In this document: piece by piece, positions 5,401-50,547 of the stretch | How the letters are laid out: each line of letters starts with the position of its first letter | Numbering within the stretch: the stretch's first letter is position 1 | From: Raillietiella orientalis | Taxonomy: Eukaryota | Direction: 5' to 3' | Assembly: GCA_036172245.1 (NCBI GenBank) | Contig: JAYWIR010000092.1 | Location: forward strand, 186,001 to 250,000 | Length of the DNA stretch: 64,000 nt | The notes under the pieces: model-generated | The model's input: the letters and a program-made list of their open reading frames with translations, nothing else | Told to the model about the DNA's origin: nothing | The model's database searches: none | Program-made: the position numbers and the translations under genes

Positions 5401-5957
5401 ACGGCTCGTGATTCCAGTGAGATGGACCACCACGAAGCGGTCCATTGTCACCGGCAAGATCTTGCGGCCGTCGACGTTCAACGGGTTGGTTATCAGACTT
5501 TGAGCCAAGGTGATCTCCTCGCACACCACCTCGACTCGCTGACTTCCGCTGAGAAGGAACAGGCCGTCAAGATATTGTTCTTTAACTCCGGCGTTTTGCA
5601 GCGCTTTCAAAAAAACGCGTGCCGTTTTTCCATTAAATAAGGGGCCTACCTGGTACACCAAGCTGGGCTTGTACCCAGCTTCCCGATAGGCCGCCATCTC
5701 GGCCATGGTTTCCGCGCTCGGCGCGGCCGCCATGGCGCTCCAGCTCCTCGCCTTGGGCGGCGAGGGCGATTCCGGGGCGGACGCCCCTGATTCTGTAGGC
5801 TGTGGGTATGGGCAAGCCTCCCCCACACCTACCTTTATCGTGGTGTCCTCAGGCATCGCTGCCATCGGACGCCAACGATGTTCCACACCAAAAACACACT
5901 AAGAAAACCGCTTCCTGTCGACTCGCTCGGGAGCGTAGGAAAAACACGTCCACTCGC
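2424..5957 (-). mobile_element. Tx1-like copy B: 5'UTR, ORF1 (about 5865-4135) and ORF2 endonuclease/RT N-terminus, cut at KAFD by copy A
   Basis: Zinc knuckles (YCGYCD..GH..KRC, CHMCEEKGHVPRVC); endonuclease motifs WNVNG, LQEIH, NVYAP, AGDFN, IDH; RT WRPITIVN. Several frameshifts. 5' end reads gcgagtggacgtgtttt. Confidence 0.93.
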
Positions 5958-6796
5958 CAAGGGATTCGGCGACGGGCTGAGGAACGACCGGGTATACCAC
6001 CACGTCCGTCTTTACTCTAGGACTCCCGACGTTCGACGCCTGGCGGAGTATAAAGCTGGGGCTGAGCGACAGACCTGGCAATCCGGGTCGGCCAGCTTGC
6101 TGGACGCCCAAGGCCAGGAATTCTCAGCTCCGGCGAGAATAAACCGCATCCTGCGGGACTATTACTCCTCCTTGTACGCGCGTAGAACAACAGAGCGCGC
6201 CGTGGCACAGCGCTTGCTGCCGCAAGGCGCCCCCGTGCTACAGGAGGAGCAGACACATCAACTAGGGGCATTTCTCGATGGCGGAGATCGTCTCCGCCAT
6301 CGGAAAGCTCAGAAAGAGGAAAGCATCAGGAGAAGACGGTCTGTCCGCGGAGTTCTACCAAGGCTTCGTGGCGGAGCTGGCCCCCCTGGTGCATAGGCTT
6401 TGCATGCTGATCCGAGAACAAGGGGACGTCCCCAAATCGTTCCGGTCAGCTATAGTACGTCTCCTGCCGAAAGGAGGAGACAATCGCAACGTAGGCAACT
6501 GGCGTCATATCACAGTAGTGAATGCGGATGCGAAGCTGCTTGCCAAGCTTTGGGCTGAGCGACTGGGACGGGTGGCGGAATCCGAGGTGAGTCCGGAGCA
6601 GACATACGCTGTTCCCGGACGAAGCATGGAGGCCAACCTGTTCCTCGCCAGTACATGGTGGCAGTTGCAACAAAGCAAAGACCAGGGAGGTCAAGAAAAT
6701 CCTGGATTCTCTTCTGACCAGGAAGGGGACGCCCTTCATGGAAGAGCCGCGCTCGGTGCCCTTGCGGTCGCAGTCGATCTGCGAAAAGCGTTCGAT
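5958..6796 (+). mobile_element. Tx1-like copy C: internal ORF2 fragment from KGFGD to KAFD
   Basis: ORFs 5878-6396 and 6278-6835 give YYSSLYA, KASGEDG, RLLPKGG, QTYAVPGR and DLRKAFD. Bounded by the 5' end of B and the 3' end of D. Confidence 0.92.
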
Positions 6797-9508
6797 TTTC
6801 ACTTGGATTGCTTTGGGTCGTTCACTAAAAAATGAACTTTATAAAGTAATTATTAATGGCTGTGGCAATGCTCCAGCCAGAAGCTAAGAACCACGGAGCC
6901 TGCCAATTCACCGGTTTCTATACCGGTACGGTCCACCAAGGCAGCAGGGGAAAGGGGAAAAACAAAAAAAATAAACAAAAAGAAACAAAGGGTGGGAGGG
7001 AACGGGAAGGGATCACTGATGCTGCTGGGGCCGCATCATCCCTCTCAGGATGCTAACAAGCTCTTGTTCGTTGTGAACATTCAGGTGGGGCCATCGCGAC
7101 GCCCCTCCTCAGGAATTGGAAGGCGCACTGGATGGCGTCCTGATCGCTGGGTCCTCCCGTCTCCGGGCTCCATGCGACGACCATCCCACGAAGGCAGCAC
7201 AACGCTGCTATGGAGGACGCTGGACGAAGAACGTCGGCACCGAAGAAGGCTTTAAGTGCGTCCCTGGGGTTCCTGCAAGATATACCGATGGCCGCGGCAA
7301 AGCGCAACCAAAAAAGCCGAAGGGCAACACAATCCACTAGGAGGTAGGGGAGGGATTACCGTTCCCCGCACCTTACACAATTGGGATCCACCGCTCCCCA
7401 GGTCCAGTGGTGTCGACGGGCGTTGCAGGGGAGTCCCCAGTGCTGCAACAGGAATGCCTACTCTTGCCATTATAAGGAGAGGATGGAAGTGTTTATAAGA
7501 ACCGGGACCCACTTCAGATGTTCAATCGGAACATCAAGCAGCGCTCCCCAGCGCAGAAGTCCATTAGGAGGCGTATTCGGGGTCGTAGCATCAGTTAGCT
7601 GGCCCGTCTTCCACTCTCTCTGCTTCTTCTCCTTCCCGCAGATTTTTATTGTAACCTCCCACTTCGCCGCAACATCGCTGTCCTGATGTTCCACTAAGGA
7701 GTCCCGCGCAGCAGCGAGGGGGGTTATTCCTGACCACGCTTTCTTCTTAGGATCCTCCAGGATCTCACGAAGCGTGCAACTTCTGTAACACTTAAACAGG
7801 AACCTTCGTTCCTGTTGGGAGCGTTGCATGCCGAACTGTCTACACGTTCCAACGGTTTCCTGCAACCAGGCACTACTGTTCGCGGGGAGACAGGTGATCC
7901 ATTCTTGATTTTTCCTTGCCAGCGCAGCCACCCTCCGTAGCTGAAGCCTACATCGGTTGATGCAGCCTTAATGGAGTGCAAGAAACGTCGTAACTCCCGT
8001 CTAGCAGGTGGCTTGCTAAATAAGGAGACGTGCAGGGACGCACAAACAGGTGCACCACAACTCCGGCACAAGTGCCAAAATCCGGAACTGGTGCTGCAGC
8101 TCCAGCCGCTCCAATGTCATGAGGCCGAGACCACCGTCCCGACAAGGAGCGCACAAGTCCTTTAAGCGGACACGGGCCCTCTCGTTGCCCCAAAGGGCGA
8201 TACTGAGGAGGTCCTTCGTCCGGTTTTTGATCCTCTCTGTGGGGGGCAAACAAAAAGCAGGAAACGGAGAAGAGGAGCCGCGAACATGTTCCAAACTGCA
8301 GCCCGTTCAGGCACGAATAACCTGCCGCCTCGGAGCGGGCCGATAGCCATCTCTAGTTTTCAAAGGCAGCCGGACCACGCTCCCGCAGGGGAGTAGTGTC
8401 CCGAAGGCACACCAAGGTACTTGAACTGACTCACCGTGGGGATCCCCAAACGTACCCAGTCCTGCTGCCCTGCCCACGCCGCACCAACTTACATCAGGGA
8501 CGACTTCGCCCTGTTGAACGTGAGTCCGGTTCCTCGATTCAGCAGCTCGAAGAACTTCTCGACCGCCAAAACCGGGGTGGACATAGGGAGCGGTAGCAGA
8601 AGGTCGTCCGCATATGCTGAAACCGCAGGCGTTCCGGCGCATTCATGCGAAGGTGCGCTAGAGTTTCCCTGTACGCTCTCAGTACCAACTCAAAGTAGGT
8701 ACTGAAGAGCAAGGGGCTCAGGCTGTCTCCCAGCCGGTTCCCACGTCGCACCGGCACGCCGTGAACAGTCTGCCCGCTGAAAGTAAGATTGATTTGCGAA
8801 TCGCGTTAGCTGGAGCGCAGATAGGCCAATAATGAGGCCGGGAAGGCCAAGCGTTGCAAAACCTCCAGCAGGAGATTCTGATCGACGCTGTCGAATGCTT
8901 TACGCAAGTCGATCGCGACCGCAAGTGCTTACTTCCCCATGCGACAATCCTTTGAATGGCTAACGGACTCAACGGAATTATCAATGCGCATCAAGCCCCT
9001 TTCGTGTTTGAGCTCTAGCCAGGTGGAAGCGTGGAACAGGTTCGCCTCCATGCTTCGCCGGAAACAGCATACGTCTGTTCCGGGCTGATGAAGGAGTTTG
9101 CAACCCGTCCCAAGCGCTCAGCCTAATCCTTAGCCAGCAACTTGGCATCCGTGTTCACTATTGTGATGGGACGCCAGTTGTTCATGCTCCTCAGATCTCC
9201 TCCCTCAAGGAGGAGCCGCAACTTTGCCGAACGAAACGAGGCGGAAACGTCACCTGTCTCGCGTATCAGCAAAGTGAGTTGCTGTACCAGGGGGTTAGCT
9301 CAGCCGCGAAAGTTCAATAAAACTCCGCGGACAGGCCGTTCTATCCTGGAGCCTTGCGTTTCTTATGCTTTCCGATGTCCGGGATGATCTCGATCATCGT
9401 GAAAGGCTCGTCAAGAAACTTTTGCTCCTCTTCCTTGATCGCAGGAAAGCTTTCCGGAAGCAGGAGTCGTGAGAAATCCCGATCGGGAGGCGCCGTGGCG
9501 TACAGGAA
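6797..9508 (-). mobile_element. Tx1-like copy D: degenerate RT, C-terminal region and 3'UTR
   Basis: Minus-strand fragments homologous to A (GDSLSPLLFSTYFELVL, DGGLGL, NGLLRWGALLDVP); its 3'UTR matches that of A. Confidence 0.92.
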
Positions 9509-9530
9509 GCGTGCGGACGTGTTTCTTCTG
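9509..9530 (+). promoter_or_regulatory. Conserved 5'-end motif GCGWGYGGACGTGTTT (DPE-like internal promoter element)
   Basis: Same motif at the 5' ends of B (5940-5957, minus), 32416-32432 (minus) and a variant in G (63141-63156, minus); matches the RGWCGTG downstream promoter consensus. Confidence 0.6.
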
Positions 9531-9675
9531 CGCTCCTGCCGCACTAGTTTTCTAAGCCTTTTTTTCTATTGTGTTAGTGCGTGGTGCATCGCCGGTGTCC
9601 CATGGCAGGAATGCCTAAGGACAACGCGATGGAAGCAGGCGGAAGAGAGGATGGTTCTTCTCCCCAACCCACAGA

Positions 9676-9842
9676 GGTGGGGGCAACCGCCCCCACGGAG
9701 GAGAGGGCAACCGGCCCCTTGAAAAAGTAGGCAACCGCCTCTCCGGAGACGAGGGCTACCGCCACCTTAAAAAAGGGTGCAACCGCCCTCGTGGAAAAGG
9801 GCGCAACCGCTCCCTTGAAAAAGGGGGCAACCGCGTCTTCGG
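9676..9842 (+). repeat. 24-bp coding minisatellite (about 7 units, GATAPLKK-like) in the ORF1 N-terminus of E
   Basis: Repeated ggggcaaccgc(t/c)cccttgaaaaag-like units. Confidence 0.9.
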
Positions 9843-12800
9843 ATCCGTCTGCTCCATCCACGAGGACCTGGAGCTCCGTGGCTGCAGCGCCATCTCCTGC
9901 AGCCTTAGCAGAACAGCGCGCCTACCTTGAACAAGGATACAAGCCGTCCTTGATTTACAAGGTAGGAAATCTGTTTGTGGGAAACACCGCTCCTAACTTT
10001 AAAAGAGAGTTTCAGCGGTCGGATGTAAAAGAGGAAGACCTGGAAGGTCTCTCCGTGATGAGTGGGGGCCAGCGGGTGGAGCTAACTTGCAAAAATGCAA
10101 GTCTGGCTCAACGCCTGCTGTACACTCCTATCACTCTGGAAGGCCGAAAGGTCTTCCCTGTAACGGAGGACCGCTCCATTGTTGCACACCTAACCGGTGT
10201 TACTCTTCGCATGACCAAAGCTGGCGTGCAGGAAGAGTTGCAAACACATGGTACGGTACACGCGCTCTGGACCAAGCCGAACGTCTTCCAAACATACGGA
10301 AGACTGTTCAGTGGCATGCCTGCAGCGCGTGTGACGGTCCACGAAAACGGTGGGCTGCTTCACAAACTCGACGTCGGCAACGAGGTCGTCGACGTCTGAT
10401 ACGTGGGCAAGCTCAAGTACTGTGGGCACTGTGATGCAACAGGGCACCTGAAAAAACGGTGCCCCCACATCCAGTGCTTCCACTGAGCCGAAAAGGGCCA
10501 CCTGCGGAAGGTGTGTCCTAAACGCGAAACCCCGGCTCCCCCTGCTTTGAAAAAAGCCAAAGGGAAACGCGCGGGGCGATCGGACAAGCCTAAGGAGGCA
10601 CCTGAGAGGCGGAACCCACAGCCAGAGCCCGAACCCGTGCTGCAAGCGCCGGTGGAGGGTACTCCCGACGACGCTGGAGAGAGCGAGGGCTGGCATGAGG
10701 CGAAGCCTAAAAGGAAAAAAATAAAGAATACCGAAGAACCGACAGCGGAACCCGCGACATCTTCTTTAAATAGGAGACAACGCCGCGCGTTGCTCGGCGA
10801 ATGTTCGTTCACTTTGGAGCGTGTGGAGGTCCCCGAGACCGTCACCGGGGGAGATATCCCCCGCCTCGTTGACGACGAAGTCGCGACCGCGGAAGGCGAA
10901 CCCTCTGTGCAAACAGAGGGGGAGCCCAGCGACGCGTTCGCCGCAATCGAGGACGCCGCCTTCCAGCAGGCGGGGGAAGAGCTCGCGGCCGAACTCGCTG
11001 AGCGTGAGAACGGCGCACGAAAGGCCTTGCGAAGGCCGGCCGCGAGCAAGGCACCTCCGACAGGTGACTACGAACCGGATGCCGGAAGTGCGTCCTCCTC
11101 CGCGGAGGCGCCTTCGAAGAAGACTGGACGGAAGTCCAAGAATCCCAAGAGGCGCATCCCGACAAAGCAGGAGGGGACGCACCGGCATCCGAGGGGGAAG
11201 CCGGCAGCGTGGGAACGGAGGGAGGGATTTTCCCACCCTCTGCTACGGAGCAACTGGCGACCCCCATGGAGGAGGGGGATAAGGTAAGCGATTGCCGTCC
11301 CCTCCCAACGGTGGAGCCTGCTCAGGAGATAGCCATGGAAGAGGGGGAGCAGACAGCTGACAAGCGCTCCCCCCTGCCGTCCAGCGCAGCCGACGAATCG
11401 GCCCTTATGAAAGAGGGGGAGCAGGTGCGTGAAACCCGCCCCCTTAAACCGTTGCGGTCCGCCGAGGAATCGGCCCCTATGGAGGAGGGAGAACCGGTGC
11501 GCGGTGATCCCCTTCCTCCATCCGTCCCTTTCGACCAGGTGCCGGGCGCTTCATTATCACTTTCCCAGAAATAAAACCTGGGCCCGCCTGTCGTCGTCGA
11601 TTACGCGTGGCCTGCAGGAACGTCAACGGGCTGCGCGACGACGGCCACAGACGGGACACGGCCTCCACCCTGCGTGACTTCGACCTGGCGCTCCTGCAGG
11701 AGATCCACGTGATCACCGCGGAGAACGCCCAGGAGATCGAAAGGATCGCAGGGGAGCGGCTTGTGTGGCAATGCGGCGCCCGCAAAACCTGTGGGGTCGC
11801 GATTCTTCATGAAGCCGGCGGTCGACGCAGCCGTGAAGGGCGTGCACTTCGACGAAGCCGGTCGTATCGGCCTGCTGATTCTCAGGTGGTCCCACGCTAT
11901 TGACTTCGTCTTTACAAACGTGTATGCCTCGAGCGGTCCTGCCAGGTACCAGGAACGTGCGGCGTTCCTGGAAACCCTGAAGCGCGACTGGCTGGTGGAA
12001 GCGAACGTGCGCAGGGTTCACCTGATTGCTGGCGATTTCAACCTGCGCCTGCTCTCAGGTGATGCCCACGCACAGGTACGGACAGCCAACGAGTTGTGCG
12101 CTGCCATGCGCACGCGCAACTTGTTGGGGGATCTCCCGGGAATGGCCAACAGCATCGACTATTTTTTCCTGGATGCTGACCTGCGTTCACGGGTCGGCAA
12201 TCGGGGGAGAGTTGCGTCGACGCTGCGAACCATTCCCGGCTAATTATCGAGGTATGCCCTCGCTACAAGGGTCCCCCTTCCAGGGCGTGGCGGCTGCCTG
12301 GGGACTGGACGCGACTCTCATGTGCGAAAGAACATCTTCGCCAATTCCTGAGAGGCGTCACCCTCCGGAATCTCGCTGATTGAGACCTTTTAAAGGCCTC
12401 GGTCCGCGAGTTCTGCGAGGAGTTCCCTTGCACCGCCTGCCCCTCGGATTTGGGGATTGGGTCCGTAACGAACGGGCGTATTTGTATGCCCGCCGTTACG
12501 CAAAGACCCCCAACATCCGTCGCCTGGCGAAGTATCGAGCCAAGGCCGAACGTCAAGCCTGGCAATCCGGGTAGGCCAGCTTGCTGGACGACCAGGGCCG
12601 GGAGCACTCGGCTCCGGCTAGAATACGGCACCTCGTGCGGTGTTATTATTCCTCCCTTTACGCCAAGGCACCTCGGGAACAAAATGCCTCTCGGCGCTTG
12701 CTTCCGGATGGTGCTTCGGCAATAGGGAAGGAAGAGAAGGAAAGCCTGGACGAGCCTTTTATTACCGGCGAAATTCTCGCCGGTATCGAAAGGCTCAAGA

Positions 12801-13435
12801 GGCGGAAAGCACCAGGGGAGGACGGCCTGCTCGCGGAGTTTTTTCAATGCTTCGCGGCAGTTGGCACCCCTGGTGCTTCAGTTGACAAGGCTTATCCGAG
12901 ACGAAGGCGATGTTCCCGTCTCGTTTCGGTCAGCCAGTGTGAGGCTCCTTCCCAAGAGAGGAGACCTCAGAGAACTCAGCAACTGGCGTCCGATCACCAT
13001 TGTGAATACGGACGCCAAGCTGATGGCCGGACTGTAAGCGTCGCGTCTAGGACAGGTGGCAGAATCCTTAATTAGCCCGGAACAGACTTACGCTGTTCCC
13101 GTGCGAAGTATGGATGCCAACCTGTTCTTCGCGAGCACATGGTTTTGCTGGCAGAGTAGTAAACATGATCGAGAGCGTGTGAGTGGTTACCCCGCTGTGG
13201 GGGCGCCAGCCGGGCAGGGAAGGGACACCGGGGCGGAGAAGGGGGCCTTAGCGATCGCGGTCGATCTGCATAAAGCGTTCGACTGCGTGGACCAGGAGCT
13301 TTTGTTGGAGCTCCTGGGTCGCATGGGCTTCCCACCCTCCCTACTAACCTACCTGCGCTCCTGCTGGCGCAACGCTATAATCAACGTCTCTTTCAGTAGT
13401 CAACAAGTGTACGGCGTGCCGGTGCGACGGGGCAT

Positions 13436-14070: not shown

Positions 14071-14329
14071 GTTTCCTATCACAATTTCAACCTCGAAAGT
14101 TCCCATTTATACAAACGTGCAGTGTTCTCCTCATGAGATTATCTATCCCGTAGACCAGGGACGGCTAGTAGCTTCTGGCATTCTAGGTTGTGGGTTTGAC
14201 GATTTATGCAGCGATGTTGCTGCAACAACTAAGCTCCAGCTCATCGCCTGTGACCGAGACGGTAGCGCAGTGGCAGTTGTCCTTGATACCGATGAGACGG
14301 GTGCTTAGGATTCCATGAAATTGATAGCC

Positions 14330-22402: not shown

Positions 22403-24023
22403 TCGGCTCTTCCAGGGAATACATCTTCGGTATGCAGAGAAAAAAGAATGCATTGCTGTTTCCATTGTGTGGAAAACGAATGATGCCAATGCATACGCTG
22501 CCAATGCATCTACAATCCTCTGTACTTTGCGAGACTCTCACAACGAGAATATGGTCGTTTGACTTCTTTTGCAGCCTCTATTCGTTTTTTCTTCTGCAAA
22601 GATTTCTCTGAAGTATGTTGTTGCAGAAAAAGCTTGTTCAAAAAAGCTTCTATGTACTTGGACTTCCATTTTACCGAGATAGATCGATTTTCATTTCATA
22701 TGCCTCTACTCTTTATTTATGAATTACATTTTACGTTGATGGTACCGAAGTAACCAAGTAACAAACGCCAGAGAAGTAAGAAACCTAAACCGGACTACTT
22801 TTGAAGAATCTGTCTAATCACAGGAAAGTTTTCCATTTGCTGTGGGCGCTTCCTCGTTCTGAGATCATGAGCTCTTGGTCTTGCAGTTTGTGCAAAGGAA
22901 GCGAAAGCCCCGTGATCTAAGAAAAAAGTTGCTCGTTTCTCAACTTGCTAGTGGCCTGGGAGGCAATTGACTTCATATGTAAATTTAACTTGCCTTTGCT
23001 AATAAACAAACGAGGAAAAGAAAAACTCAGTTCTTCCAAACCTTCAAGGTACCATGCAGTGTGGCCGACATCCCTCTTGGCGCACAGTAAGCATGCGAGC
23101 TTATCAGCTCGAGCGGAGATGTCCGAACGTCTCTATAGGCAAAGAAACTACGAAACGCCTGATTTCTTTGTTCGCAATCGCCAACCATCAATGTTTTTCT
23201 TCTCGATTTCGCGACCATCGTACCATTTTTGTTATACGATGAAGGCAATCCTACAAACCAGTATCCGTGTTCCTCCCCAGAACTTTTCATTAGCGTCACA
23301 CAGGGTGTCGTGAATCTGTTCCCCGTGATCTCTCATCTTGGAGAGATCAGCTTTACCGATCCCTCTTTTACAGTATAAACCAACTTTTCTTTTCCAAACA
23401 CACATGGAAAAAATAAAATTTAGTTTGTGTTCCCTTATTTGGATCGTTATGAAACCCATGCCGTGCCATAAAGTCAGCAGACCTTTATGTCAATGCACAC
23501 CCTTCCAATGGAACCAAAGAACAAGCGGTTAATAGCTTCGCTTTAGCAATCATGTGAAAGCAATTGAGCACTATAGTTTCGTCACTTTGATCAGGTTGCT
23601 TCCTGGAATTGCAGCCAGCAATTCAAGTTCTTCGGAAAAGTGCAATTTGCCACGAATGGTGTCTGCAGTATCAGTTTTTCATTTTCTCTTCCAGGGAGTC
23701 TGAAACAAAGCTGCAGTCAAAATAGGCGGCAATGCAATTTGAATTTGGGGATGCATTTGTTTACATGGTCACAATTAAGCATGGAAAACAACTTTTCCGA
23801 TTCCGATATTGGAATTCGCGATAAATGTTCACTCGATATTTACGTACGAAAACGTTTTCATACGTTCCACCGCACACCCGACAGGTCAGAATTAAACTGC
23901 TAATCTCAGCTGTAAGTCTCATACGAGAAAAGAGTTTCATGGATCACCAGCAATAATTCAGCGTTATTGAATTGCATGCTGGAGCAAGGCACTGTTTCAC
24001 CTGAGATTTGGGTGGAATGTGCA
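22403..24023. repeat. 1.6-kb segment, arm 1 of an inverted duplication
   Basis: Reverse complement of 34959-36580; mirrored short ORFs are nearly identical (e.g. 23338-23532 vs 35450-35644). Confidence 0.95.
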
Positions 24024-24657
24024 TCCGCAGGCGTACCGGGATAGTCGCGAGGCAGGTTCGCTTGAGTTTGCCTGCAGGCTCTGAATATCAACTCGATGAA
24101 GGTACTGAAGAGCAAGGGGCTCAGTCTATATTCCTGCCGTATGCCACGCAACATCGGAACAGTGTGCACGGTGTGCTTGCCGAAAAAAACGTTGATGAGC
24201 GCGTCGGACCAACTGGAGCTCAGATAGGCTGGGAAGCCCAAGGGTTACAGAAAATCGAACACGTTTTTCTCTTCCATGCATCGATGTTTTTCATGCAAGT
24301 CGACAGCCACCGCAAGGGCGTTCTTTTCTGTTCACCATCGACCTCCTTAGCGACGTACGCAACGGAATTTCCGTCACGCATCTACCCCGTTTCATGCTAG
24401 AGATCCAGTCATTTGGAAGCGTGGAAAAGTTTAACCTATAATGCTTCGCCCGGTAATAGCATATGTCTGCTGCGAGCGGATGGAAACGTTTGCAACTTGT
24501 CCTAGCCGCGAAGGTCACAACTGAGCCAGCAATAAGGTGTCCTCATTGACTATTGCGATACTTGTTCACGTTCCTCAGATCTTCCTTATGTAGAAGGCAC
24601 ACCTTTGATGAGCGAAATGAGGCGGAAACCTCACCTGTTCCGCGGTTCAGCAACGTA
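24024..24657 (-). mobile_element. Degenerate family-1 RT fragment
   Basis: GFPAYLSSSWSDALINV..RGIRQEYRLSPLLFS. Confidence 0.85.
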
Positions 24658-33339: not shown

Positions 33340-33830
33340 AGAGAAAACCCGATGGTTGCTTAGCAGGAACACCGGAATGGTGTCGAGGGACGGATTTGAA
33401 TAGTCGCGATCAAATAAGTGAAAAATCTATAATGAATTAAAGGGACGAGAAGACCATTTATAACTAGTGTCTTAGAGGAATTGTAGGAGTAGTAGTAAGA
33501 TGAGATCATAAAAGGATGTTGTCTGGTGCGGATGATGAAGAATTTATCTTCATAGTTTGTACATTTTATGTGAAGTAAAAGAGATCTGAAAATGAAGAAA
33601 AAGTTACCTCAGGGATAACGGTGTAATTTTTACGCAGAGTTCTAATTGATGTGATATTTTGCTACCTCGATTTTGAATTAGGGATCTATGAGGTGCATGA
33701 TGTTCACGGTATGAGTCTGTTCGCCTAAAAATTCTACAAGATTTAAGTTCAGATCGGCGTAAGCCAGATTGGTTTCTATCTTTTTACAGTGGTCGTATTT
33801 CTTATTACGAAAGGATTGAAAAGCTGAACA
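33340..33830 (+). pseudogene. rrnL: NUMT: degraded mitochondrial large-subunit rRNA (3' half)
   Basis: Ordered animal mt-16S landmarks: gacgagaagacc (33444), aagttacctcagggataac (33601), acctcgat, gtctgttcg, agttcagatcggcgtaagccagattggtttctatc, tacgaaagga. Substitutions at normally invariant sites. Confidence 0.85.
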
Positions 33831-34130: not shown

Positions 34131-34958
34131 AAGGTACTACGTACAGACCTTTATGCGGCTAATTGTATGCTAATTTCTGTTTACGTGCATAACTTGGAAG
34201 TGCAGTTTCATAAATCCACGCTTCCTCGTTGTCTGATCATACGATGGCAACTATATTGAGATTGCGCTTAGACAAACTTTCCCTGTAATCCGAAGTGAGT
34301 GGCCGAGGGCGGAGGTACGAGACGTGTGGATCGGACATGTAATGCAATTGCCGAACAGAATAGCTTCTGGGAGAACGTAAGCATTTCCTCAGTATTGCGT
34401 AGGGACTTTGAGATTCTGAAACAAGGAACTGAACACGTTATGCGGAATGGTTTTGTTCTTTCATCGCAGCATTATCGACGAGTAGAAATGGACACTTCCT
34501 CCATCTAAGATTCATAGGATAAACTGTGATTGACATTAGCAGTTTCGGATGGTCATTCATGCAAGGCTGCCACGCAATATAGACCTTTGGTTGCTTTGAA
34601 AATTTCAAGTTTCAGTGGTTGCTGCTGGTGGTCACTCTTTTCATCAAAAGCAACCTGGGAGTTGAGGATCTCTTTTCACGATATCATACGGGATTCGCCC
34701 TTCAGTTTTGCGAAACAAAGGGAAGCTGCTCGTTCGTTTTCGAGACTACAAATGATGTCAGTGAAGGCAAATACCCACTCTGCAAGCAAGGATGGGGACC
34801 AAATAACTTGCCACCAGCAGAAGATACACCGTGTTCGGTACTCGTGAAAGTAAGTTTCAACTGCTCCCTGCAAGGTTTTCAATCAGTTTTCTTAGTCTCC
34901 GCAGGGAAGTACTGAACCTGTGGCTGTAGTCATCCGTGAGGATCAGAAGACTTGTGGC

Positions 34959-36580
34959 TGCACATTCCACCCAAATCTTAGGTAAAATAGTGCCTTGCTC
35001 CAGCATTCAATTCAATAACGTTGAATAACTGTTGGTGATCCATGAAACTCTTTTCTCGTATGAGACTTACAGCTGAGATTAGCAGTTTAATTCTGAGCTG
35101 TCGGGTGTGCGGTGGAATGTATGAAAACGTTTTCGTACGTAAATATCGAGTGAACATTTATCGCAAATTCCAATATCGGAATCGGAAAAGCCGTTTTCCA
35201 TGCTTAATTGTAACCATGTCAACAAATGCATCCCCAAATTCAAATTGCATTGCCGCCTATTTTGACTGCAGCTTTGTTTCAGACTCCCTGGAAAAGAAAA
35301 TGAAAAACTGATACTGCAGACACCATTCGTGGCAAATTGCACTTTTCCGAAGAACTTGAATTGCTGGCTGGAATTCCAGGAAGCTACCTGATCAAAGTGA
35401 CGAAACTAAAGTGCTCAATCGCTTTCACATGATTGCTAAAGCGAAGCTATTAACCGCTTGTTCTTTGGTTCCATTGGAAGGGTGTGCATTGACATAAAGG
35501 TCTGCTGACTCTATGGCACGGCATGGGTTTCATAACGATCCAAATAAGGGAACACAAACTAAATTTTATTTTTTCCATGTGTTTTTGGAAAAGAAAAGTT
35601 GGTTTATACTGTAAAAGAGGGATCGGTAAAGCTGATTTCTCCAAGATGAGAAATCACGGGGAACAGATTCACGACACACTGTGTGACGCTAATGAAAGGT
35701 TGAGGGGAGGAACACGGATACTGGTTTGTAGGATTGTCTTCATCGTATAACAAAAATGGTACGATGGTCGCGAAATCGAGAAGAAATACATTGATGGTTG
35801 GCGATTGGCGAACATAGAAATCAGGCGTTTCGTAGTTTCATTGCCTATAGAGACGTTCGGACATCTCCGCTCGAGCTGATAAGCTCGCATGCTTACTGTG
35901 CGCCAAGAGGGATGTCGGCCACACTGCATGGTACCTTGAAGGTTTGGAAGAACTGAGTTTTTCTTTTCCTCGTTTGTTTGTTAGCAAAGGCAAGTTAAAT
36001 GTACATATGAAGTCAATTGCCTCCCAGGCCACTAGAAGTTGAGAAACGAGCAACTTTTTTCTTAGATCACGGGGCTTTCGCTTCCTTTGCACAGACTGCA
36101 ACACCGATAGCTCATGATCTCAGAACGAGGAAGTGCCCACAGCAAATTGAGAACTTCCTTGTGATTAGACAGATTCTTCAAAAAGTAGTCCGGTTTAAAT
36201 TTCTTACTTCTCTGGCGTTTGTTACTTGGTTACTTCGGTACCATCAACGTAAAATTTAATTCATAAATAAAGAGTAGAAGCATATGAAATGAAAATCGAT
36301 CTATCTCGGTAAAATGGAAGTCCAAGTACATAGGAGCTTTTTTGAACAAGCTTTTTCTGCAACAACATACTTCAGAGAAATCTTTGCAGAAGAAAAAAGG
36401 AATAGAGGCTGCAAAAGAAGTCAAACGACCATATTCTCGTTGTGACAGTCTCGCAAAGTACAGAGGATTGTAGATGCATTGGCAGCGTATGCATTGGCAT
36501 CATTCGTTTTCCACACAATGGAAACAGCAATGCATTCTTTTTTCTCTGCATACCCAAGATGTATTCCCTGGAAGAGCCGA
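34959..36580. repeat. 1.6-kb segment, arm 2 of the inverted duplication
   Basis: Reverse complement of 22403-24023. Confidence 0.95.
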
Positions 36581-36639
36581 TCCTGATGTAGCAGCCAGTG
36601 CCATTCTTACAGAGGCGAGCAATTCTGCTCCGTACATGA

Positions 36640-41100: not shown

Positions 41101-41349
41101 CCTGAATTTACATATGTGATACATTCATAATCTGCACAGACAATACACGCAATTCAAATTTAAATTTCAATGGGCTTATCGCCAAAAATCGCCAGAATGC
41201 TTTGAGAGCACAAATTTGATCACCTCTTGGCCGCAGAAATCCAAAGGTAGTAGAAAGCAAAGTCGAGGAGGATCCTCACCTCCGAGATTGTTACTTTAGT
41301 TTTGCACCGCCCTCGCTTCCGATTGCGTCTCAATCATTGAACACCGATA

Positions 41350-44300
41350 GTCAGAATGTCTTTCGAAAAAGTTTCGTGGACGTTGCGTGGAATCTCCCTT
41401 GGTGAGGAAGAAGGTTTCGGCGGAGATGTTGATGCCTCAAATGCAGACAGAGAAGCAGAGGAAGGCGACAAAGTAGAGATTCATGAATCCAACCTGGCGA
41501 CGCAAGAGGTCTTGCAGTTCACCCAGAAGGTTGTGAATCTTGTGGTGTAGGTGCACCAGAGTGCAGCAACAGCAAATCCTGACTCGCATCTGCGAGGTCC
41601 AGCAGGACATCTGTGATTTGGTGGAGGCATGCGAACGCGAAAAGCTGAAGACCAAGCTTTTCGAGGTTAAGGCGGCCCAAGGCGCGACGGTCAGCTCGGA
41701 GACCTTCCTGCGCAAGCAGGTACCCACAGCCGAACGCTCGATGGAAGAACACGACAAGACAGACAAAAGCAGCACGCACAGCAATGCCGGAAACCAGAAG
41801 CCCTCTTCTTCTTTCTCAGGGAGAATACAACGTTCTCCCCGACAGAAGAAGCTCAGAAAGCGCAAAAAATACATTCCCTTGATGGTTTCGTCTTTGTCCA
41901 CCTCCAGGAGACTACACATCGCCTCTTAGAATGTTAATGGACCTCAAGACCAAAAAGAAGAAGAATAGTGCGGAACATCGTTCAATACGACATCGTGTGC
42001 CTACAAGAAACTCACCTGATGGGACAAGAATTGAGCCTTTACTTGTAAAGGCTATTGAACGCCAAACTGCTTACCAGCAAAGAACAGAACATACCTTGGG
42101 GATGGCGATCTCAAACAAGAACGAGCTCGCCGCCACTAACCTCGAAACTTCCGTCGCATACCTGGAAGAGTCATAGTCTTACTTTTGTCCTGGTCCGCAA
42201 ACGTTCTCCTGTTCCTGTTGGATGTTTAGGAACCCCATTAACATAAACATCGGTGCGCGGAGACGCTCGACCAAACCCTCCGATAAACGGTCGCACCGGA
42301 GGACATCGTCATCATCGTTGGGGACTTCAACATACCCGATGAAGTCGTCTATTTCCGTGACATCAGGGGCAGTACGGCGTAACGGCGGCCTGTCCGACGA
42401 TTTCGGACTGCTATGGCTAACAACCAGCCATATCCTCTGCAGCTCCGACATAGGGAACCGCTTCTTGGGTTTCCTGACACGCTTCACTCAGTGTTGGAGC
42501 TCCCGTTAATAAGGTTTTCCTTGAGAACTGCAAAAACTCGGCAAAAGCAGGCACTCATGTAGGCGCTCATCTGCATGCCCGCCTGCTTCGACACGCTACC
42601 CTACTACCATGAGCTAATAGAGGCCATACAGCAGACGACCATTATCAGTAGATTCGCCGACTGGGATAGCTTGAAACACCGAGTCCACCTTTTCTGCAGC
42701 ATACAGTTCGGTGATAAGAGATTAAGGCGGTAACCGGATCGGTAGCTGAACATCCAAGACCTCTCCCTCTTGACGTATTGGATACAGTTCGAGATTCTGT
42801 ACGTCTTCCAAAACTTCAAGGTAGAAGTCGGCGTTCTAGAGAAGCGGGATCTGGCAACAGATATCTTCTGCATCTAGTACGATGGTCGCGCCAAACACAC
42901 GTTCGAGGATATCATTAAAACCATCCAAAGACACTATGTGGAACACTTACGACTCAGACTTCTGTGCAATTCATATGAAAATAGTTTCTTGAAACATCTG
43001 GAGACAAGTGTCGACGAAAGCAATCGAAGGATCATCCATGAAAAATTCTCCTAAGAAGTGAAAGCTGCGTTTCAGGACCTTCGCAAGGATGTGGTAGCGT
43101 GCCCTGATAGTGTTCCCATCGCACACTATCAACGGTGCCAGCATCCCTACGAGCGTTTGTTCCACCTGCTGACGCTACGCACCAAGGACGAAGGACGACT
43201 ACCGCAATGCTTTCACTGGAGTAGGATGCGATTGCTGCCAAAAGAAGGTGAGCTGACGTAGGTCACCAATGGAGGCCAATATCTATCCTCAACCCCGACG
43301 CAAAGTGGTTGGAGAAGATCTGAGCCAACCGCTTAAGCAAGGTCATGCCGAAACTGATCTTCCGGTCCAGACATGTGCCTTGCCTGGACGCCACATGTCG
43401 GAACATGTGAAGTGCGCCCAAGCTACCATTGGACTCAGCTGAGAATCTGTGATAACTTGTTACTGGGATTCACTGACATGTAGACGGCTTTGGATACGGT
43501 GGACCTCGGTATGCTGCTGAAGATTCTAGGAAGACTGGGTCTCCCGGAATACTTCGCCAACTTTGTGAAGACGGTACTTGAAGAACAAAACTTCCGCATC
43601 AATATTAACGGTGAAACGACAACAGCTTTCCGGATGGAACGCAGAGTCCGCCAGAGCGATGCTTCAAGTCCGAGCGTGTTTGTCATCTACATGGAAGCCC
43701 TCTCGTTGTTCATCGAGAGATTTGGATACCTTCAAGGTTTCAACGTGAACAGCCACAGACTCATCCATCTGGCTTATGCAAGCGATCTTGTCTTCTTCTT
43801 AAAATGGGAGGGAGATCAGCGAGGTTCTCTGCATGTGTTGGTGCTTATAAATAAAGGATTAAGCTTAAAGATCAACGCCGAGAAGAACCAGCTTTTGCCA
43901 ATCGGAGAACTGGATCTCTGCGCACTCACGAAAGAAGGATTCCGCACGGTGGATCGAGTGAATTACCTATGTGTCCACATCGGAGTTGCTCCAACACCAC
44001 GATTATTGTGAAAGGAAAACCTGGGGAAAACATTCTCCAGGATTTCCTTCCACAATAATCGTTTTCCTTGCAAGGTTTCGGCGTGAAAGCGAATTGAAGT
44101 AATGTGTTGAAGTGTGCCGCCCTGCGTATCATGTGCGATCGTCTGTCAATCACCCTAGACATTGCAGAAGGCAGCACCAGGGACATTTTCGAGCCCCTGT
44201 ACCTTCGTTTCCGTCTTCTTTTGAACGCGCTCATAATTCCTCTCTGCTTTATGCTAAAAATCTAAGAGGAATGGAAGCCTGCAAGAAAAAACAAATGATT

Positions 44301-44900
44301 TAAATATTATGCAAGAGATGCAGCTTCTTCTGAAAACCGTATGGAGAGACCCCCACTAAAACAATAACAGCAACCAATTTTTCGTCATTTGTTCGCGATA
44401 CTTTATTTAAAATAAACCAGTTGATTCTCCACTTTTCAAACGACGGTTAGAGCACCGCAATGGTTAGCAAGATGCATCCACACTCAACCCTTGTCAACAA
44501 GATTTCCAAACAATGAAGCGAACAAATGACAAGAAAACTGTATAAATCGGGTGAGAAGAGCTGAGAATCCTTCTAATCATTCTGCGTGCAACTGAACCCA
44601 AAAGAAAACATGGAAAACTTACGAAGCAAATAGGAATGTGGAATCGGAGCAATAGAAACAAAGATGTAGAATGGAAAACGATCACAGAGTCTTTCTTTGC
44701 AATTGGCCTCGAACCAGCAACCCGGATGCGATAGATTTCCTCCGTGGCCCCCATTTCGTAATCAGATCACTTTGCAGTAGTCTTGGTGTACCCCTTCTAG
44801 TGTTTCCCATTCACCGACTGGTAATTTTCGGCATTAATCGAGCCCCGATGGTGGCACGGATGCCACCAATAGTTGCCATAACTTCGGCCGGGTAAAGGCT
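41350..44900 (+). mobile_element. Degenerate family-2 L1/Tx1 element: ORF1 C-terminus and ORF2
   Basis: Collinear with copy I on the opposite strand (RQKKLRK, SSLSTSRRLHIAS, VCLQETH, MRLLPKEG, RVRQSD, HLAYASD). Confidence 0.9.
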
Positions 44901-45949
44901 CCATGGTGCATTCCATCTCCGCAACACATCGCACTCAATGTTATTTTCATACAATGCCATTCTTGGAATGATTCGGGGAACCCCACGCGATTGTGGCTTT
45001 TTCCCTGTCTTTCGCGGATTCTCGGTGCTTCTCTCGATTTCTACCAGAAGGGAAGTATAATCCAGATCGTCAAGATGGGGTGAGTTTATGCTTATTACGT
45101 GAGATGCATGCACACATGCGTACATGCTACTTGAATACCGGATGCAGGTGACTGCCATTTATTGTCTCACTTTGACAAGCTGTATTTCGGTATTGCATTG
45201 TATAGTGTTCCCTCTCCATTTCCACGAGACCACGCTTTCGTTATCCGAAAATCATCTCTCATGGAAATGTTGCCGTGAACGTAACGGTTTATGTTGTGTA
45301 CCGCAATTCATGGGCAGGTGAGAGATGTACTTCTTTGAATCGTACCTTGCAGATTCCAGAAAGGCAACCTCTCCTGGGACTGGATACCGTTGTTTGTTGT
45401 ACCGGGATGCAAAGGGAATCAAAATCACTAATGCAGGCTTCCATGAGGAAAAGAGCATCGAGGCGCCCAAACAACAAAAAAGGACCAGAAGCTCCACAGA
45501 ACTAACACCCTAGATGTCGCCTCACCGTGGCGGTCCAATGAAGGAAGTTTTAGCTGCTAGGGCACTGAATTGCTCTCTTCTCGTAGACTCCAATTGGTTT
45601 TCTCCTGCACGTCATGATGCAGGACATCTTCCACTCAGCTCGTGGGACACTGTTACTTCTTGTCCTATATACAGGCAGTCCAGCGGTGGGAATGCTCAGA
45701 TCCATGCTCAGTTACCTGTTAACTGTCAACCTTCACCTCTTGAACTGCTAGTACCTTAGCACATGGTACCAAATTCGTAGAAGAAAAAGGTCTTCAGGAG
45801 TCAATCCCCACAACGAATTGTAGTAGCCAACTGCCTTCTACCGTCAAACACTGGTTTCCTCAGTTCGGAGAAGATTCACGACTGTGCATCAACTTGAGAG
45901 GAGAATGCTTAACGTTAGAAGCTGCTTCCAGTAGTTCCTCATTTTCTAG

Positions 45950-46670
45950 TGAGTACCTCTTAGCAACGACAGCGTAATTTCGCTGCCGACGCATCACCGT
46001 ATTAAAATGCCTGCAGGCGTGCGAATCGAGAATGTTAAGAGCTTGATACAGGTTTTGGATCAGCGCTTGCAGTCCGAATCTTTCCGACGTGAGTATACCT
46101 CAAGCAGCAATGGGAGGCGCAATTGCGGACTCTTTCACGCGGATCCTGAACCTTACAAATCCTCCAAGATTGCTTATCAGTTGACACAGAGTTTACTGAT
46201 CTATTTCGATGAGGAACCTACAAAGAAATAAAAGGGGTCGAGCAACAAAACCAGAAGATGTTCCGAGAGACAGTTAGTTTAAGGAAGTGGATCTTGCTTG
46301 AAGGTACGCGGTTGAAGTTGCCTCGCCTCATAAAGACAGTATCCCTGTGCTTTGGCTGTTTCGTGTACCCACAACGAATCACCAGCGCACTTTTAGTGTC
46401 TCCTCATGAAAGAAAAGTACTGTGAGCTGTGCAACACATTTAGGCATCTGAAAAAGAGATGCCCGGATGCCACATGCCCAACCTGTAGCGCGAAGGGCCA
46501 CACTAGTGCTGTGTGACCGAAAAATGCCGCGACAACGCCTTTAGCCCCTTCGACAAATGAGGGGAAGAAGGCAGAAAGCAAAAAAAGCAGCGATCAACAG
46601 CCGACTTCAGAAGAAGTCGTGCAAACGGGACAGGAGCCTCAAAAGGAGACTTCTGAGCCAAATGCCGACG
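45950..46670 (+). mobile_element. Degenerate family-1 ORF1 fragment
   Basis: KYCELCNTFRHLKKRCPDATCPTCSAKGHT zinc knuckles. Confidence 0.75.
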
Positions 46671-47875
46671 AGGAAGGCTTTTGTCGTTTCTGTCTGTGCG
46701 CGTCGGCAGAAGAGCACATTGTGGCTCTCACCTGCGACGCATGGCCGTTGTGGTACGGGAGAACACCTGGATCTCCTGCCTCCCAGAGAACTACTCGGCA
46801 TGGTTGCACGAGTCAGTCTCCACCTGGGAAAAGATCTACGTACCGGCGGGCACAAAGAACACTTGCCTGAAAAGGCGTGCCCGCTGGGCGCTCCAGGAGA
46901 TCGTGCAGTCCCACGACAAGCTTATGTGGGCTTTGATAACCCCCCTTGCCCCAGTGTTGCCCTTTCTCATCAGTGCCAGGGACAGTAGGGAGCTGGGGAA
47001 ATGGACCGTGTCCTGCACCGTAATCGGAGGGACACAACCGATAAAGCCGTGGACATCTCGGCAGCTAGCGGACGCTGCGACGCCGAGTGTCATGCCCAAC
47101 GAAATTCGACGCTGGAGCGAGCTACTCGGACTATCTCCGGAGGAGATGAAGTGGCCCCCAGCGTCCTGGAACAGTGGATCTCTCCCCCTTAAATGGCAGG
47201 AGGTGGCGTTGCTTGTAATGCATTGGGGTTTACCCTTTAAAGCACGCCTGTATCACACCACCCGGGAGGCTGTGGATCCCCAGTGCGACTGGTGCGGGGA
47301 AAAGGAGACCTTCCTCCACCTTCTCATTGAGTGCAGTGCCATCCGTCCTTTATGGGATCGCCTTACGGCGATCCTGGACTTGCGCGGATGCGGCCCCAAG
47401 GACGTTTTCAGGCGCCTCTTCTGTAGTAACGCCTTGTCCCCCCCCGCTTCTGTAGCAATCCTCTGCTGCATTCGAGGGATCGTGACGGCTTGGAACGCCA
47501 CCAGAAGACGTCAGCCAACTGACAACGCCTTACGATGGACTCGCCTATTCGTGCGAGCTGTATGCAAGTGGCGCCACTTAGGCGCACAGCGGACTCAGCT
47601 TGTCCGGATCCTGAATAGGATCTAGAGGACCTATCCGGGCGCAAAGTGATCCCTTCCCTGCCCTCCCATCCCTAAAACATTTATCCCCTCCCGTGTTTTA
47701 ACTTTTTGTTTGTTTTGTTTTTTCTGTCCCAACCCCCGCGCATCGGACGGACCTCTCCGGCATAGAGCCGGGAGCCAGTAAGCTGTTTTGGCGTGGTGCA
47801 CCTCCGGGTTCTCCACTCGAAAAATTAATGTATTTTTGTTTTTCGAAATAAATGCCCCGGAATATCCGGGTGAAA
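46671..47875 (+). mobile_element. Copy N: 5'-truncated Tx1-like element, ORF2 C-terminus and 3'UTR
   Basis: Open 314-aa frame 46681-47625 with LPLKWQE..HWGLP and CDWCGEKETFLHLLIEC; ends aataaatgccccggaatatccgggtgaaaa. Confidence 0.92.
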
Positions 47876-49250
47876 ACGCTAACGCCGCGGAACCTCCGCA
47901 GGAAATCTGCGGCAAGAACGCAAGCACCAGCGACGAGAAAAATTTCGCAAAGGCGGCGGAGGAACTCGCGGCCACCTTAATGCAGCCGCCTAAGGCTGCA
48001 AAGAAGGTCATAAGACGTCCGGCGGAAGTCAAGGGCCCGGAAACTTCCGAGTCCGAGGCGGAAGCAGGAAACACTCCCACCGTCGCCCTCCCGAAGAGGA
48101 AGGCGGGCCGGAAGTCTCGCAACCCTATGCGCGTCGCTCCCCCTCGGGCTGATGAGGAGGGGATGCGCTCGGGTAGCGAGGAGGCGATGTCCGCGAGGTC
48201 GCGGGATCCTTCCTTGGAGAGTGTACGGAGCGACATTCCCATCGATCTCAGTCCGGCTGCCGACGTTCCGGTCGTCTTCGGAACACAGCCTATACAGGTG
48301 GACATCGACCAGCCGCCTCCCGAACAGGAGGCGGCTACACAATCGCCACCACCATCATTAGCATGATGCGTGGAATCGCCTCTTGCCGGCAGCTACGTAT
48401 AGCCTGTTGGAATGTCAACGGGCTGCGTAGCGAAAGCAAGAGGCGTAGCGTGGTTGACACCCTGCGAGCTTTCGACCTGGCACTTCTCCAAGAGGTGCAT
48501 GCCCTGAGAGGAGAGGACGTCCAGGAAATCGAGAGGCTCACAGGGGGGAGGCTACTATGGCGTTGTGGAGGAGACCACTCCCGCGGAGTGGCCTTTCTGC
48601 TGAAGCCGGCCGTCGCTAATGCGGTGCGCAGTGCACACTTCGACGAGGAAGGTCGAGTTGGGCAACTTGTCCTCAAGTGGTCCGAATCGATCGACCTCGT
48701 AGTTACGAACGTGTACGCGCCATGCACCAGCCACAGGCGCGGAGAACGCACTGCGTTCTTCGAAGCCCTGCGGCAAGACTGGCTGGCTGAAGCAGGCGTG
48801 CGGCGGGCGCATCTGATAGCATGAGACTTCAACGTCCGCCTGCTGTCGGAAGCGCCCGACATAAGAGCACAATTCGTCAACGAGTTGTGTGCGGCTATGC
48901 ACACACGCAACTTGTTGGCCGATGAATCCGGGGTAAGAAGCAGAATAGACCACGTGTTCCTGGATAACCACTTGTGTACGCGGGTGGGGACACGAGGAGC
49001 ACTTGCGTCGGAGCTGTCCGATCACCCTCGGCTAGTGCTCAACATCCATCCGCGGGACAGAGGTCCACCCTCCGAAGCGTGGCGCCTGCCGGGGGACTGG
49101 TTGCGACTCGCAGGAGCGCGCGAACATTTGCGCGCATTCCTGCGTAGTTGCGAACTGCAGACTCTCGCTGACTGGGACAAAATAAAACGCTCAGTCCGAG
49201 AGTTCTGTGACCAGTTTCCCCTCCATCAACTTCCTCCAGGTTTCGGCGAT
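47876..49250 (+). mobile_element. Copy M: ORF1 C-terminus and ORF2 endonuclease, cut at GFGD by copy L
   Basis: FAKAAEELAATL; ATGA overlap at 48363-48366; WNVNG, LQEVH, NVYAP, RIDH, LSDH. Confidence 0.93.
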
Positions 49251-50547
49251 GCCACCCGGATACGCCGGGACGTTTATTAAAAACATTTCAACAGTCAATA
49301 CAGAACGTGGTACAAGGCCCCAGTGACGGCCACGCAATACCGGAACTGCCGGGACACCGGGACGCAGCCCGGTGTGGCTCTCCTCGGCAGTGGAGGGGGA
49401 TGGGGGAGAAAACAAAAATAAAATAAAAGAGAAAAACAAACAACAAAAGGAGTTTGAAGGGCCGGTAAGGGATCACAGAAAACAGCTGGGAGCGCCCATC
49501 CTTTGCAGGATGCCTTCTAGTTCCATTTTCAGTTTTCCTAGATGGAGCCATCGGGTAGCTCTCTGCAGGAAGCAAGAAGCATACTAGATGACGTCCCTCA
49601 CGATGCAGTCTTCATCTTCGGCATCACTCCAGGCCGCCACGATACCACGAATGCAGCAAAGTGCTGCCAGGGCTGCGGCTGGACTGAGGGCGTCCCGCAC
49701 GAAGACAAGACTGAAGACACATTCAACATTGCCACCATCCGGTATCCCAAGTGCCGTTTTAAGACGATCCTGAAGAATCCGGACGGCAGGGCATTGAACT
49801 AAGAGGTTGGGGAGCGACTCTCGCTCCCCACACCTGGCACACGCAGGATTTACTCTTCCCCGCGTCCAGTGGAAGCGGCGCGCGTTGTAGGGTAAACCCG
49901 AATGCAGCCACAGAAGCGCCGATTCTGGCCACTTCAGGGGAAGAATCCTGGATCCAAGTAGAACCGGGGGCCACTTCAGGTCATCCAATCGAATGCCGAG
50001 CAGCTCGCCCCATCTTCTTAATCCACGCGGCTGGAGACTAGGGGTCGTTGCTTCTGTCATCTCTCCCATGGTCCAGCCGCTCATCATCTTCTCTCTGCCT
50101 GCGATACGGCAGCAGACTCGCCACCTTGGCTTCCGGCTTTCGAGAAGCGCACTTTGGAGGAAGGGCATCGCCGTAACAAGGGGTGTGCCTTCCGTCCACG
50201 TGCAACTCGGTGCAAATTCAAGAATTTCACGCAGAGTTCAGCGGGCGTAAAGGCCGACTCGCAGGTAGTTCATCCGGTCTTCGCACCTCTGGTTCTGCTT
50301 GGCCCAGGTGCGAGCAGTCTTCTTTAGCCAAGCGGAGGAATTGGTGGGGCCACAAACCATCCAGTCGTTCTCCTTTGCCAGGGTTGCCATGCGGCCGAGC
50401 AGTGAACCGCATCTTCGAATCTTCCGGCCAGGGCACAGACGAAACGATGCGAGTCCTTCGCAGCGAAACACACGCCTGGCCAGAAGGCGGGCCGGAATGC
50501 ACCAAGCGGTGCTCCACATCTTCGCTGCGATGGCGAGGGTTCGCTAT
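49251..50547 (-). mobile_element. Copy L: ORF2 C-terminus and 3'UTR
   Basis: LPLKW..HSGLP and CARCGERESLP; ends aataaacgtcccggcgtatccgggtg. Confidence 0.92.

What the first reader, a model, noticed from the sequence alone, without database searches (positions are those of the whole stretch)
5950..49280. Second antisense hotspot at the GFGD codons; both hotspots imply a 15-16 bp target-site duplication
The 3' end of L joins M at ccaggtttcggcgat| (49250). The 5' end of B joins C at |caagggattcggcgac (5958-5973), 16 bp upstream of the homologous point. At KAFD the 5' junction (63163) is likewise about 15 bp upstream of the 3' junction position. A consistent offset at two different sites is what staggered cleavage during target-primed reverse transcription would leave. 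This argues for true insertions rather than recombination. The duplication is inferred across different copies because no single insertion here keeps both ends.
Basis: partly seen in the sequence, partly recalled or inferred. Interest (0 to 1): 0.78.

Follow-up and report, generated by a model that had tools for sequence, protein, structure and literature searches.

The report
LINEs targeting sister LINEs' GFG codons
Several related jumping genes (LINE retrotransposons) land backwards at one fixed spot inside their relatives' main gene and duplicate about 13-14 bases there, slightly fewer than first estimated, which makes them a natural set of site-specific inserters.

Summary
The hotspot is real; the duplication length needs correcting. 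The window is a nest of L1-group non-LTR retrotransposons. Genome-wide, 153 3' and 92 5' junctions sit on the GFG core (controls 0 and 3). In lists not selected for target, 79 of 92 B-type and 54 of 100 M-type 3' ends are on it. B's missing 3' end lies 16.9 kb left of the window and abuts a GFG site. At unique off-target sites, 19 of 38 copies show a duplication of 11-16 bp, median 13 (14 counting a shared base). KAFD gives 14. Full-length copies at GFG usually share only 10 identical bases. Their 5' copy often carries donor-type rather than target-type bases (10/15 versus 1/23), suggesting the RNA brings the donor's target copy and anneals, as in R2. Target-primed insertion is supported, but B's two host flanks belong to different families, so later recombination also occurred. 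The scan has noted this guild before on other DNA of this genome. Verdict: new variant of target-specific APE LINEs.

The parts
1..2424 (+). Element A (KAFD-targeting family), 3' part: RT to 3' UTR, AATAAA, CCGG hairpin, GAAAA tail. Its 5' part lies left of the window and is interrupted by a nested copy.
2425..2438 (-). 14-bp KAFD duplication copy at A's 3' end; identical to the copy at A's 5' end left of the window
   Evidence: (EXT row)
2425..5961 (-). Element B, 5' part (ORF1, APE endonuclease, RT up to KAFD); GFG-targeting family, 86% identical to the copy in L101, which has an open ORF2
5947..5961 (-). B's fixed 5' leader (5952-5961) and conserved GGACG motif (5947-5951); 5958-5961 is leader, not target
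5962..5971 (+). 10-bp GFG core at B's 5' junction; reads GGA (donor type) where empty sites of this host family read GGT
5962..6795 (+). Host element C, from GFG to KAFD
6796..9509 (-). Element D (A family), inserted antisense at C's KAFD; tail at 6796-6800
47880..49248 (+). Host element L (end of ORF1, APE domain, linker) ending at GFG
49236..49248 (+). 13-nt target at L's GFG site, the expected duplicated unit; first nick inferred after 49248
49249..50546 (-). Element M, 3' 1.3 kb (tail 49249-49253; hairpin and AATAAA to 49278), 90% identical to the full-length copy in L126; its 5' part is missing here
61231..63162 (-). Element O (A family), 5' part, interrupted in the APE domain by N
63163..63176 (+). 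14-bp KAFD duplication copy at O's 5' end, followed by host P

Best explanation
B- and M-type elements are APE-type LINEs whose machinery prefers the GFG codons in the endonuclease-RT linker of sister LINEs. Steps: (1) The host's coding strand is nicked after GGCG. This is inferred from junctions: the tail base next to it is element-derived. (2) The 3'-OH primes reverse transcription at the short tail behind a 3' hairpin, which fixes antisense orientation. TPRT is established knowledge; the orientation is shown. (3) The other strand is cut about 13 nt away, giving a 13-14 bp duplication, shown for truncated copies. (4) For full-length copies the RNA begins in or before the donor's own target copy. 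The cDNA end anneals to the overhang and overwrites part of it, so only about 10 bp stay identical and the 5' copy often shows donor bases. This is inferred, by analogy with R2. (5) The regenerated site takes further copies, giving tandem arrays (shown). (6) Later crossovers between the many copies swap flanks; discordant flanks are shown, their cause is inferred. The A family does the same at KAFD (14 bp), and other families use other fixed sites.
For: Junction counts 153 and 92 against controls 0 and 3. Lists not selected for target, hand-counted: B-type 55 direct + 24 tandem of 92 (100 of 112 rows shown, 8 rows of another family set aside); M-type 38 + 16 of 100 (100 of 104 shown). At least 8 different host-flank types occur at the same nucleotide. 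Off-target duplications: 19 of 38 scored 10 or more against 1 of 38 controls; lengths 11 (1), 12 (5), 13 (8), 14 (4), 16 (1). The on-target truncated copy keeps 13 nt. For host family C, GGA stands in 10 of 15 full-length 5' junctions but in 1 of 23 empty, truncated or 3' junctions (Fisher p 6e-5). Trees of flanks and of elements do not group by that base. Of 21 both-end GFG copies, 8 have identical cores and 10 differ at core position 8. In the L108/L109 array the newest 5' copy differs at positions 2 and 8 from two identical target copies. Open ORF2s of 1,215 and 1,221 aa exist.
Against: 19 of 38 off-target copies gave no clear duplication. 46 of 100 M-type ends are off-target, at short look-alike sites, so specificity is loose. 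Some junction copies are duplicates of one event (L187 equals the window), so counts overstate independent insertions. The search patterns leave core positions 2, 5 and 8 free, which biases where mismatches can be seen. Mismatched 5' copies could come from gene conversion or flank exchange. No RNA or biochemical data support steps 1 and 4.
Confidence: 0.8

Rival explanations
1. The insertions are real, with a plain 13-14 bp duplication, but the mismatched 5' copies and fixed leader arise afterwards by gene conversion or crossover among the many near-identical copies. The RNA carries no target sequence.
For: Discordant flanks at the window's B, L111, L129 and L172. Exact segmental duplicate L187. 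Copies of the A family are 92-97% alike.
Against: A crossover inside an element cannot change the duplication copy that adjoins the same flank. Conversion should hit both ends, yet for host family C the change is at 10 of 15 5' junctions and 1 of 17 3' junctions. Of the 19 duplications around truncated off-target copies, none has a fixed leader.
Confidence: 0.2
2. There is no dedicated targeting. The endonuclease prefers a short motif (about CC(C/T)N|CGCC), and insertions pile up in GC-rich, selectively neutral LINE nests where GFG codons happen to spell the best motif.
For: Off-target sites share this short motif. About half of M-type ends are off-target. Insertions outside nests may be purged.
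Against: Off-target ends inside sister elements are scattered singletons while one nucleotide takes 28 of 36 mapped non-tandem B-cluster ends (that set is partly selected for the site). In the unselected list 79 of 92 B-type ends use one site. Sister families use different fixed sites in the same hosts.
Confidence: 0.15
3. The junctions are recombination or assembly products rather than insertions.
For: Some flanks are discordant, and the region is highly repetitive.
Against: Junctions fall at the precise element ends in opposite orientation, where there is no homology to recombine. Clean duplications flank truncated copies at unique sites.
Confidence: 0.03

Closest known systems
Target-specific Tx1-clade LINEs: Tx1L in Tx1D (Xenopus); Tx1-Mar in Mariner-N4_AMi; Tx1-8_Crp and Tx1-4_AMi in LTR elements (PMC4494074, passages read)
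   Same: Two ORFs with APE-RT-zinc finger; another transposon is the preferred target; best named protein hits are Tx1-like at about 30% identity.
   Different: The targets here are coding codons of sister LINEs, hit antisense, with several families each on its own site. In the RT tree these elements form their own long-branched group outside the TX1-labelled rows.
R1 elements of insects (PMC2718515 and PMC1919474, passages read)
   Same: APE-type, site-specific, 14-bp duplication (11 and 13 bp variants); tandem arrays built by insertion into the regenerated duplication; off-target copies occur.
   Different: R1 targets 28S rDNA. Its ancestral-type 5' junctions are not thought to form by cDNA annealing. 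It is a different clade (recalled; not tested here).
R2 elements whose RNA keeps upstream target sequence (PMC3774820, abstract and first part of Discussion read)
   Same: Uniform full-length 5' junctions; junction variants of the donor are carried in the RNA and propagated.
   Different: R2 has a restriction-like endonuclease, an rDNA target and an HDV-like ribozyme. No ribozyme family was hit in this window.
Zepp / ZeppL L1 elements of green algae (PMC8226300 and PMC3446292, passages read)
   Same: L1-group LINEs that insert into existing copies and form GC-rich nests.
   Different: Zepp forms one cluster per chromosome of mostly 3'-end tandem copies. Here junctions occur on dozens of contigs, with several families at fixed antisense sites. 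The original Zepp papers were not read.

Membership tests
APE-type non-LTR retrotransposon (L1 group) | ORF2 with APE endonuclease, RT and C-terminal zinc finger | tested here: met
   PF03372, PF00078 and PF13966 on window ORFs; open 1,215-aa ORF2 in L101
APE-type non-LTR retrotransposon (L1 group) | Separate ORF1 with nucleic-acid-binding motifs | tested here: met
   ORF1 with two CCHC-type knuckles, read by eye; no Pfam hit
APE-type non-LTR retrotransposon (L1 group) | 5' truncation and short target-site duplications | tested here: met
APE-type non-LTR retrotransposon (L1 group) | Poly(A) or simple-repeat 3' tail (recalled as typical, not universal) | tested here: not met
   Ends are AATAAA, a CCGG hairpin and a 4-5 nt tail
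Target-specific LINE (criterion of PMC4494074) | One sequence type in more than 20% of flanks | tested here: met
   B-type 79 of 92, M-type 54 of 100 (hand count)
Target-specific LINE (criterion of PMC4494074) | Endonuclease with intrinsic sequence preference | not testable with these tools
   Needs a nicking assay
Tx1 clade | RT monophyletic with Tx1 elements | tested here: inconclusive
   Free trees place B, A and R outside the TX1-labelled group; the AU test does not reject inclusion (p 0.08); branches are long and reference labels are database names
Zepp/ZeppL | One nested cluster per chromosome; RT related to Zepp | not tested
   No Zepp sequence was in hand; junctions lie on many contigs, sometimes at several places on one contig
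R2-like elements with HDV-type ribozyme | Self-cleaving 5' ribozyme | tested here: inconclusive
   No such Rfam hit at gathering score in the window; 5' ends fold into short hairpins mostly no better than shuffles

The most novel reading that the evidence does not exclude
The landing site completes the element's promoter. Each family carries only a downstream-promoter-like GGACG motif. Inserting at its fixed site places a host CA initiator 27 nt upstream, so transcription starts in the host LINE's antisense strand and the RNA includes the donor's target copy, which then guides 5' joining. Sibling families have divided up the coding sequence of their relatives among at least eight such sites. 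Support is thin: CA at -27 in 4 of 12 families (the +28 spacing and consensus are recalled), donor-type 5' copies, and leader/target pairing at p about 0.07.
Probability: 0.2. Interest if true: 0.82.

Novelty: new variant of a known kind. Interest (0 to 1): 0.6.

Why it matters
What sets the target choice of APE-type LINE endonucleases, and how the 5' end is joined, are open questions with bearing on gene-insertion tools. Here closely related families (ORF2 DNA about 70-80% alike) choose different fixed nucleotides in the same hosts, and some copies have open ORF2s. That is a ready natural panel for domain swaps and nicking assays. The asymmetry between the two duplication copies gives genomic evidence that an L1-group RNA can carry donor target sequence into the 5' junction. 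The duplication length itself is ordinary (R1-like).

Tried and rejected
15-16 bp duplication: rejected as the typical length; only 2 of 19 unique-site cases reach 15-16 even when the shared base is counted.

Leader pairing with its own target as an RNA guide: own versus swapped duplex energies gave permutation p 0.07, and one of 13 rows was a mis-picked duplicate of the A row. Individual hairpins were mostly within shuffle range. Not supported.

Descent of the GGA-type 5' junctions from one duplicated event: neither flank nor element tree groups them (short alignments, no support values).

Empty-site searches: one search had a mis-specified pattern (1 match) and one search found nothing for a second host family, so the empty-site comparison rests on host family C only. 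One search examined only 17 GFG 3' junctions and found no truncated both-end copy; L182 came.

Expression: no RNA holder listed. The single DNA run (share 0.09) gave family-level contigs and nothing decisive on junctions.

Atlas search returned only generic endonuclease clusters. Pfam on 53 ORFs in 13.4-46.6 kb found one RT fragment and no host gene.

Literature: searches returned nothing; two searches returned nothing relevant on LINEs that target fixed codons of other LINEs. The library lacks most subscription papers, so this is weak evidence of novelty. No supplements were read; the supplementary figures of PMC4494074 on crocodilian Tx1 targets may bear on novelty.

Full report
Setting. The window is G000:C92:186001-250000 in a 210-Mb eukaryotic assembly of 491 contigs. 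Its two GC-rich ends are nests of non-LTR retrotransposons with ORF1 and an APE-RT-zinc-finger ORF2. Elements start a few bases before a conserved GGACGTG motif and end in AATAAA, a CCGG hairpin and a 4-5 nt tail, without poly(A). The best named homologues are Tx1-like at about 30% identity. RT trees place these elements as their own long-branched group among L1-like sequences; membership of Tx1 is neither shown nor rejected (AU p 0.08).

Observation. Both junctions are as written. The site is a true hotspot: 153 3' junctions and 92 5' junctions lie on the GFG core genome-wide, against 0 and 3 for reversed patterns. To avoid imposing the target, I listed 3' ends by element sequence alone and classified the rows by hand. 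For B-type ends (100 of 112 rows shown; 8 rows of a family with another tail and target set aside), 55 of 92 abut GFG in a host, 24 abut a regenerated GFG core followed by another copy, and 13 are elsewhere. For M-type ends (100 of 104 shown) the numbers are 38, 16 and 46. At least eight host-flank types occur, so many events are independent. Not all are: the window's L|M junction is identical over 1,185 bp to one on C63, while seven other L-type junctions differ from it by 5-15% in M and break off at different points.

Left of the window the nest unfolds as Z(+) | B-down(-) | A-up(+) | nested copies | A-down(+) | B-up(-) | C(+). B's 3' end abuts a GFG site at L002:3147, and A is flanked by an identical 14-mer at KAFD. 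So insertions here do keep both ends once the contig is read further. However, Z is 84-88% like family B, whereas empty sites of C's family have a different upstream sequence. B's two hosts are therefore discordant, as in L111, L129 and L172. Crossovers between copies, or assembly joins, have reshuffled the nest.

Duplication length. I fetched 40 loci chosen as off-target; 38 were anchored on a 3' end. In 19 of 38 a duplication scored 10 or more, against 1 of 38 swapped controls. Lengths were 11 (1), 12 (5), 13 (8), 14 (4) and 16 (1), median 13, or 14 if a base shared with the tail is counted. The other 19 gave no clear duplication. In 9 of the 19 clear cases the fifth tail base differs from the target, so the tail is element-derived and M begins at 49249. 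A truncated M-type copy in a GFG site keeps exactly the 13 nt seen in empty sites (L182). At KAFD, 12 both-end copies show a 14-bp unit, identical in 3 of 9 non-tandem cases and 11-13 of 14 alike in the other 6.

The two copies are not equivalent. Of 23 both-end candidates at GFG I set aside two whose ends appear to come from different families (L121, L129). Of the other 21, 8 have identical 10-bp cores, 10 differ at core position 8 and 3 differ elsewhere. Beyond position 10 the fixed leader replaces the target: the three following bases match in only 2 of the 12 whose 3' flank is a host. The leader is constant even at non-GFG flanks. For host family C, empty sites read GGT in 5 of 5, the truncated junction in 1 of 1, and 3' junctions in 16 of 17, but full-length 5' junctions read GGA in 10 of 15 (p 6e-5). 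The simplest reading is that the RNA starts in or before the donor's target copy, and its cDNA anneals to the overhang and partly overwrites it. PMC3774820 (abstract and first part of Discussion read) proposes this for R2 RNAs that keep upstream target sequence. Gene conversion remains a rival, and my patterns left positions 2, 5 and 8 free.

Mechanism. Shown: fixed site, antisense orientation, 13-14 bp duplication, tandem arrays, element-derived tail and leader. Inferred: a first nick after GGCG on the host's coding strand, priming at the tail, a second cut about 13 nt away, and donor-templated 5' joining. Off-target sites share a short look-alike motif, consistent with an endonuclease preference plus added context. 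Among 212 distinct 3' ends in the fetched loci, other families map to their own fixed sites: ORF2 residues about 72, 81, 285, 460, 503 and 588 antisense, 171 sense, and a site in ORF1 (the sample is partly selected). The A family, sampled by similarity alone, has 26 of 38 ends at or next to KAFD and 6 in tandem.

A bolder reading. Taking GGACG as a downstream promoter element at +28 (consensus and spacing recalled; PMC4180977 passages confirm only strict Inr-DPE spacing and that jockey depends on it), the start falls in host sequence. CA sits at that position in 4 of 12 families, one of which suggested the idea. This is suggestive only. Pairing of leader with own target was not significant.

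Comparison. It works like R1 in duplication size and tandem arrays (PMC2718515, PMC1919474; passages read), like Tx1L and Tx1-Mar in targeting other transposons (PMC4494074; passages), and like Zepp in self-nesting (PMC8226300, PMC3446292; passages). It differs in that several sibling LINE families hit fixed codons of one another, mostly antisense. Four searches found no paper describing that, within a limited library. Earlier notes of this scan describe the same guild on other DNA of this genome; they are not independent evidence.

Verdict. The hotspot and insertion origin are supported. The length is 13-14 bp rather than 15-16, the 5' copy is partly donor-derived, and recombination also shaped this nest. 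New variant of a known kind; interest 0.6.

Noticed in passing
window 33526-33778 (+): Weak Rfam LSU rRNA hit. By eye it resembles the 3' domain of an animal mitochondrial large-subunit rRNA (recalled resemblance), so possibly a nuclear mitochondrial copy and a hint that the host is an animal.
   Followed up: no
window 22403-24029 and 34953-36580: Inverted duplicate of 1.6 kb at 96.6% identity, with no Pfam hit in its ORFs.
   Followed up: no
window 51751-56505 (-), 41786-44031 (+); L001:1915-7415 (+): A distinct, more divergent LINE family (R; about 32% RT identity to B) without the hairpin end. The two long copies sit antisense in the ORF1 region of N-family copies.
   Followed up: partly
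window 61201-61231 and L002:7190-7215: N-family 3' ends sit antisense at the same APE-domain position (about residue 72) of A-family hosts: a third hotspot in and beside this window.
   Followed up: partly
window 47846-47880: K's 3' end joins L in the same orientation within ORF1, so not all junctions are antisense; sense-orientation sites also recur at ORF2 residue 171 and in ORF1.
   Followed up: partly
window 50546-50548 and L187: M switches abruptly to a B-family ORF1 piece on the opposite strand. The same breakpoint is in the duplicate on C63.
   Followed up: partly
L101:2209-5853 (+), L108:847-4509 (-): B-family copies with open ORF2 frames of 1,215 and 1,221 aa, suggesting recent activity.
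   Followed up: partly
L188, L189, L184, L190: M-family copies inserted at GFG are themselves interrupted at their own GFG or KAFD sites: targeters are also targets.
   Followed up: partly
L115, L127, L007: Some 5' leaders are reverse-complementary to the start of their own duplication, with variants that keep the pairing; overall test not significant.
   Followed up: yes
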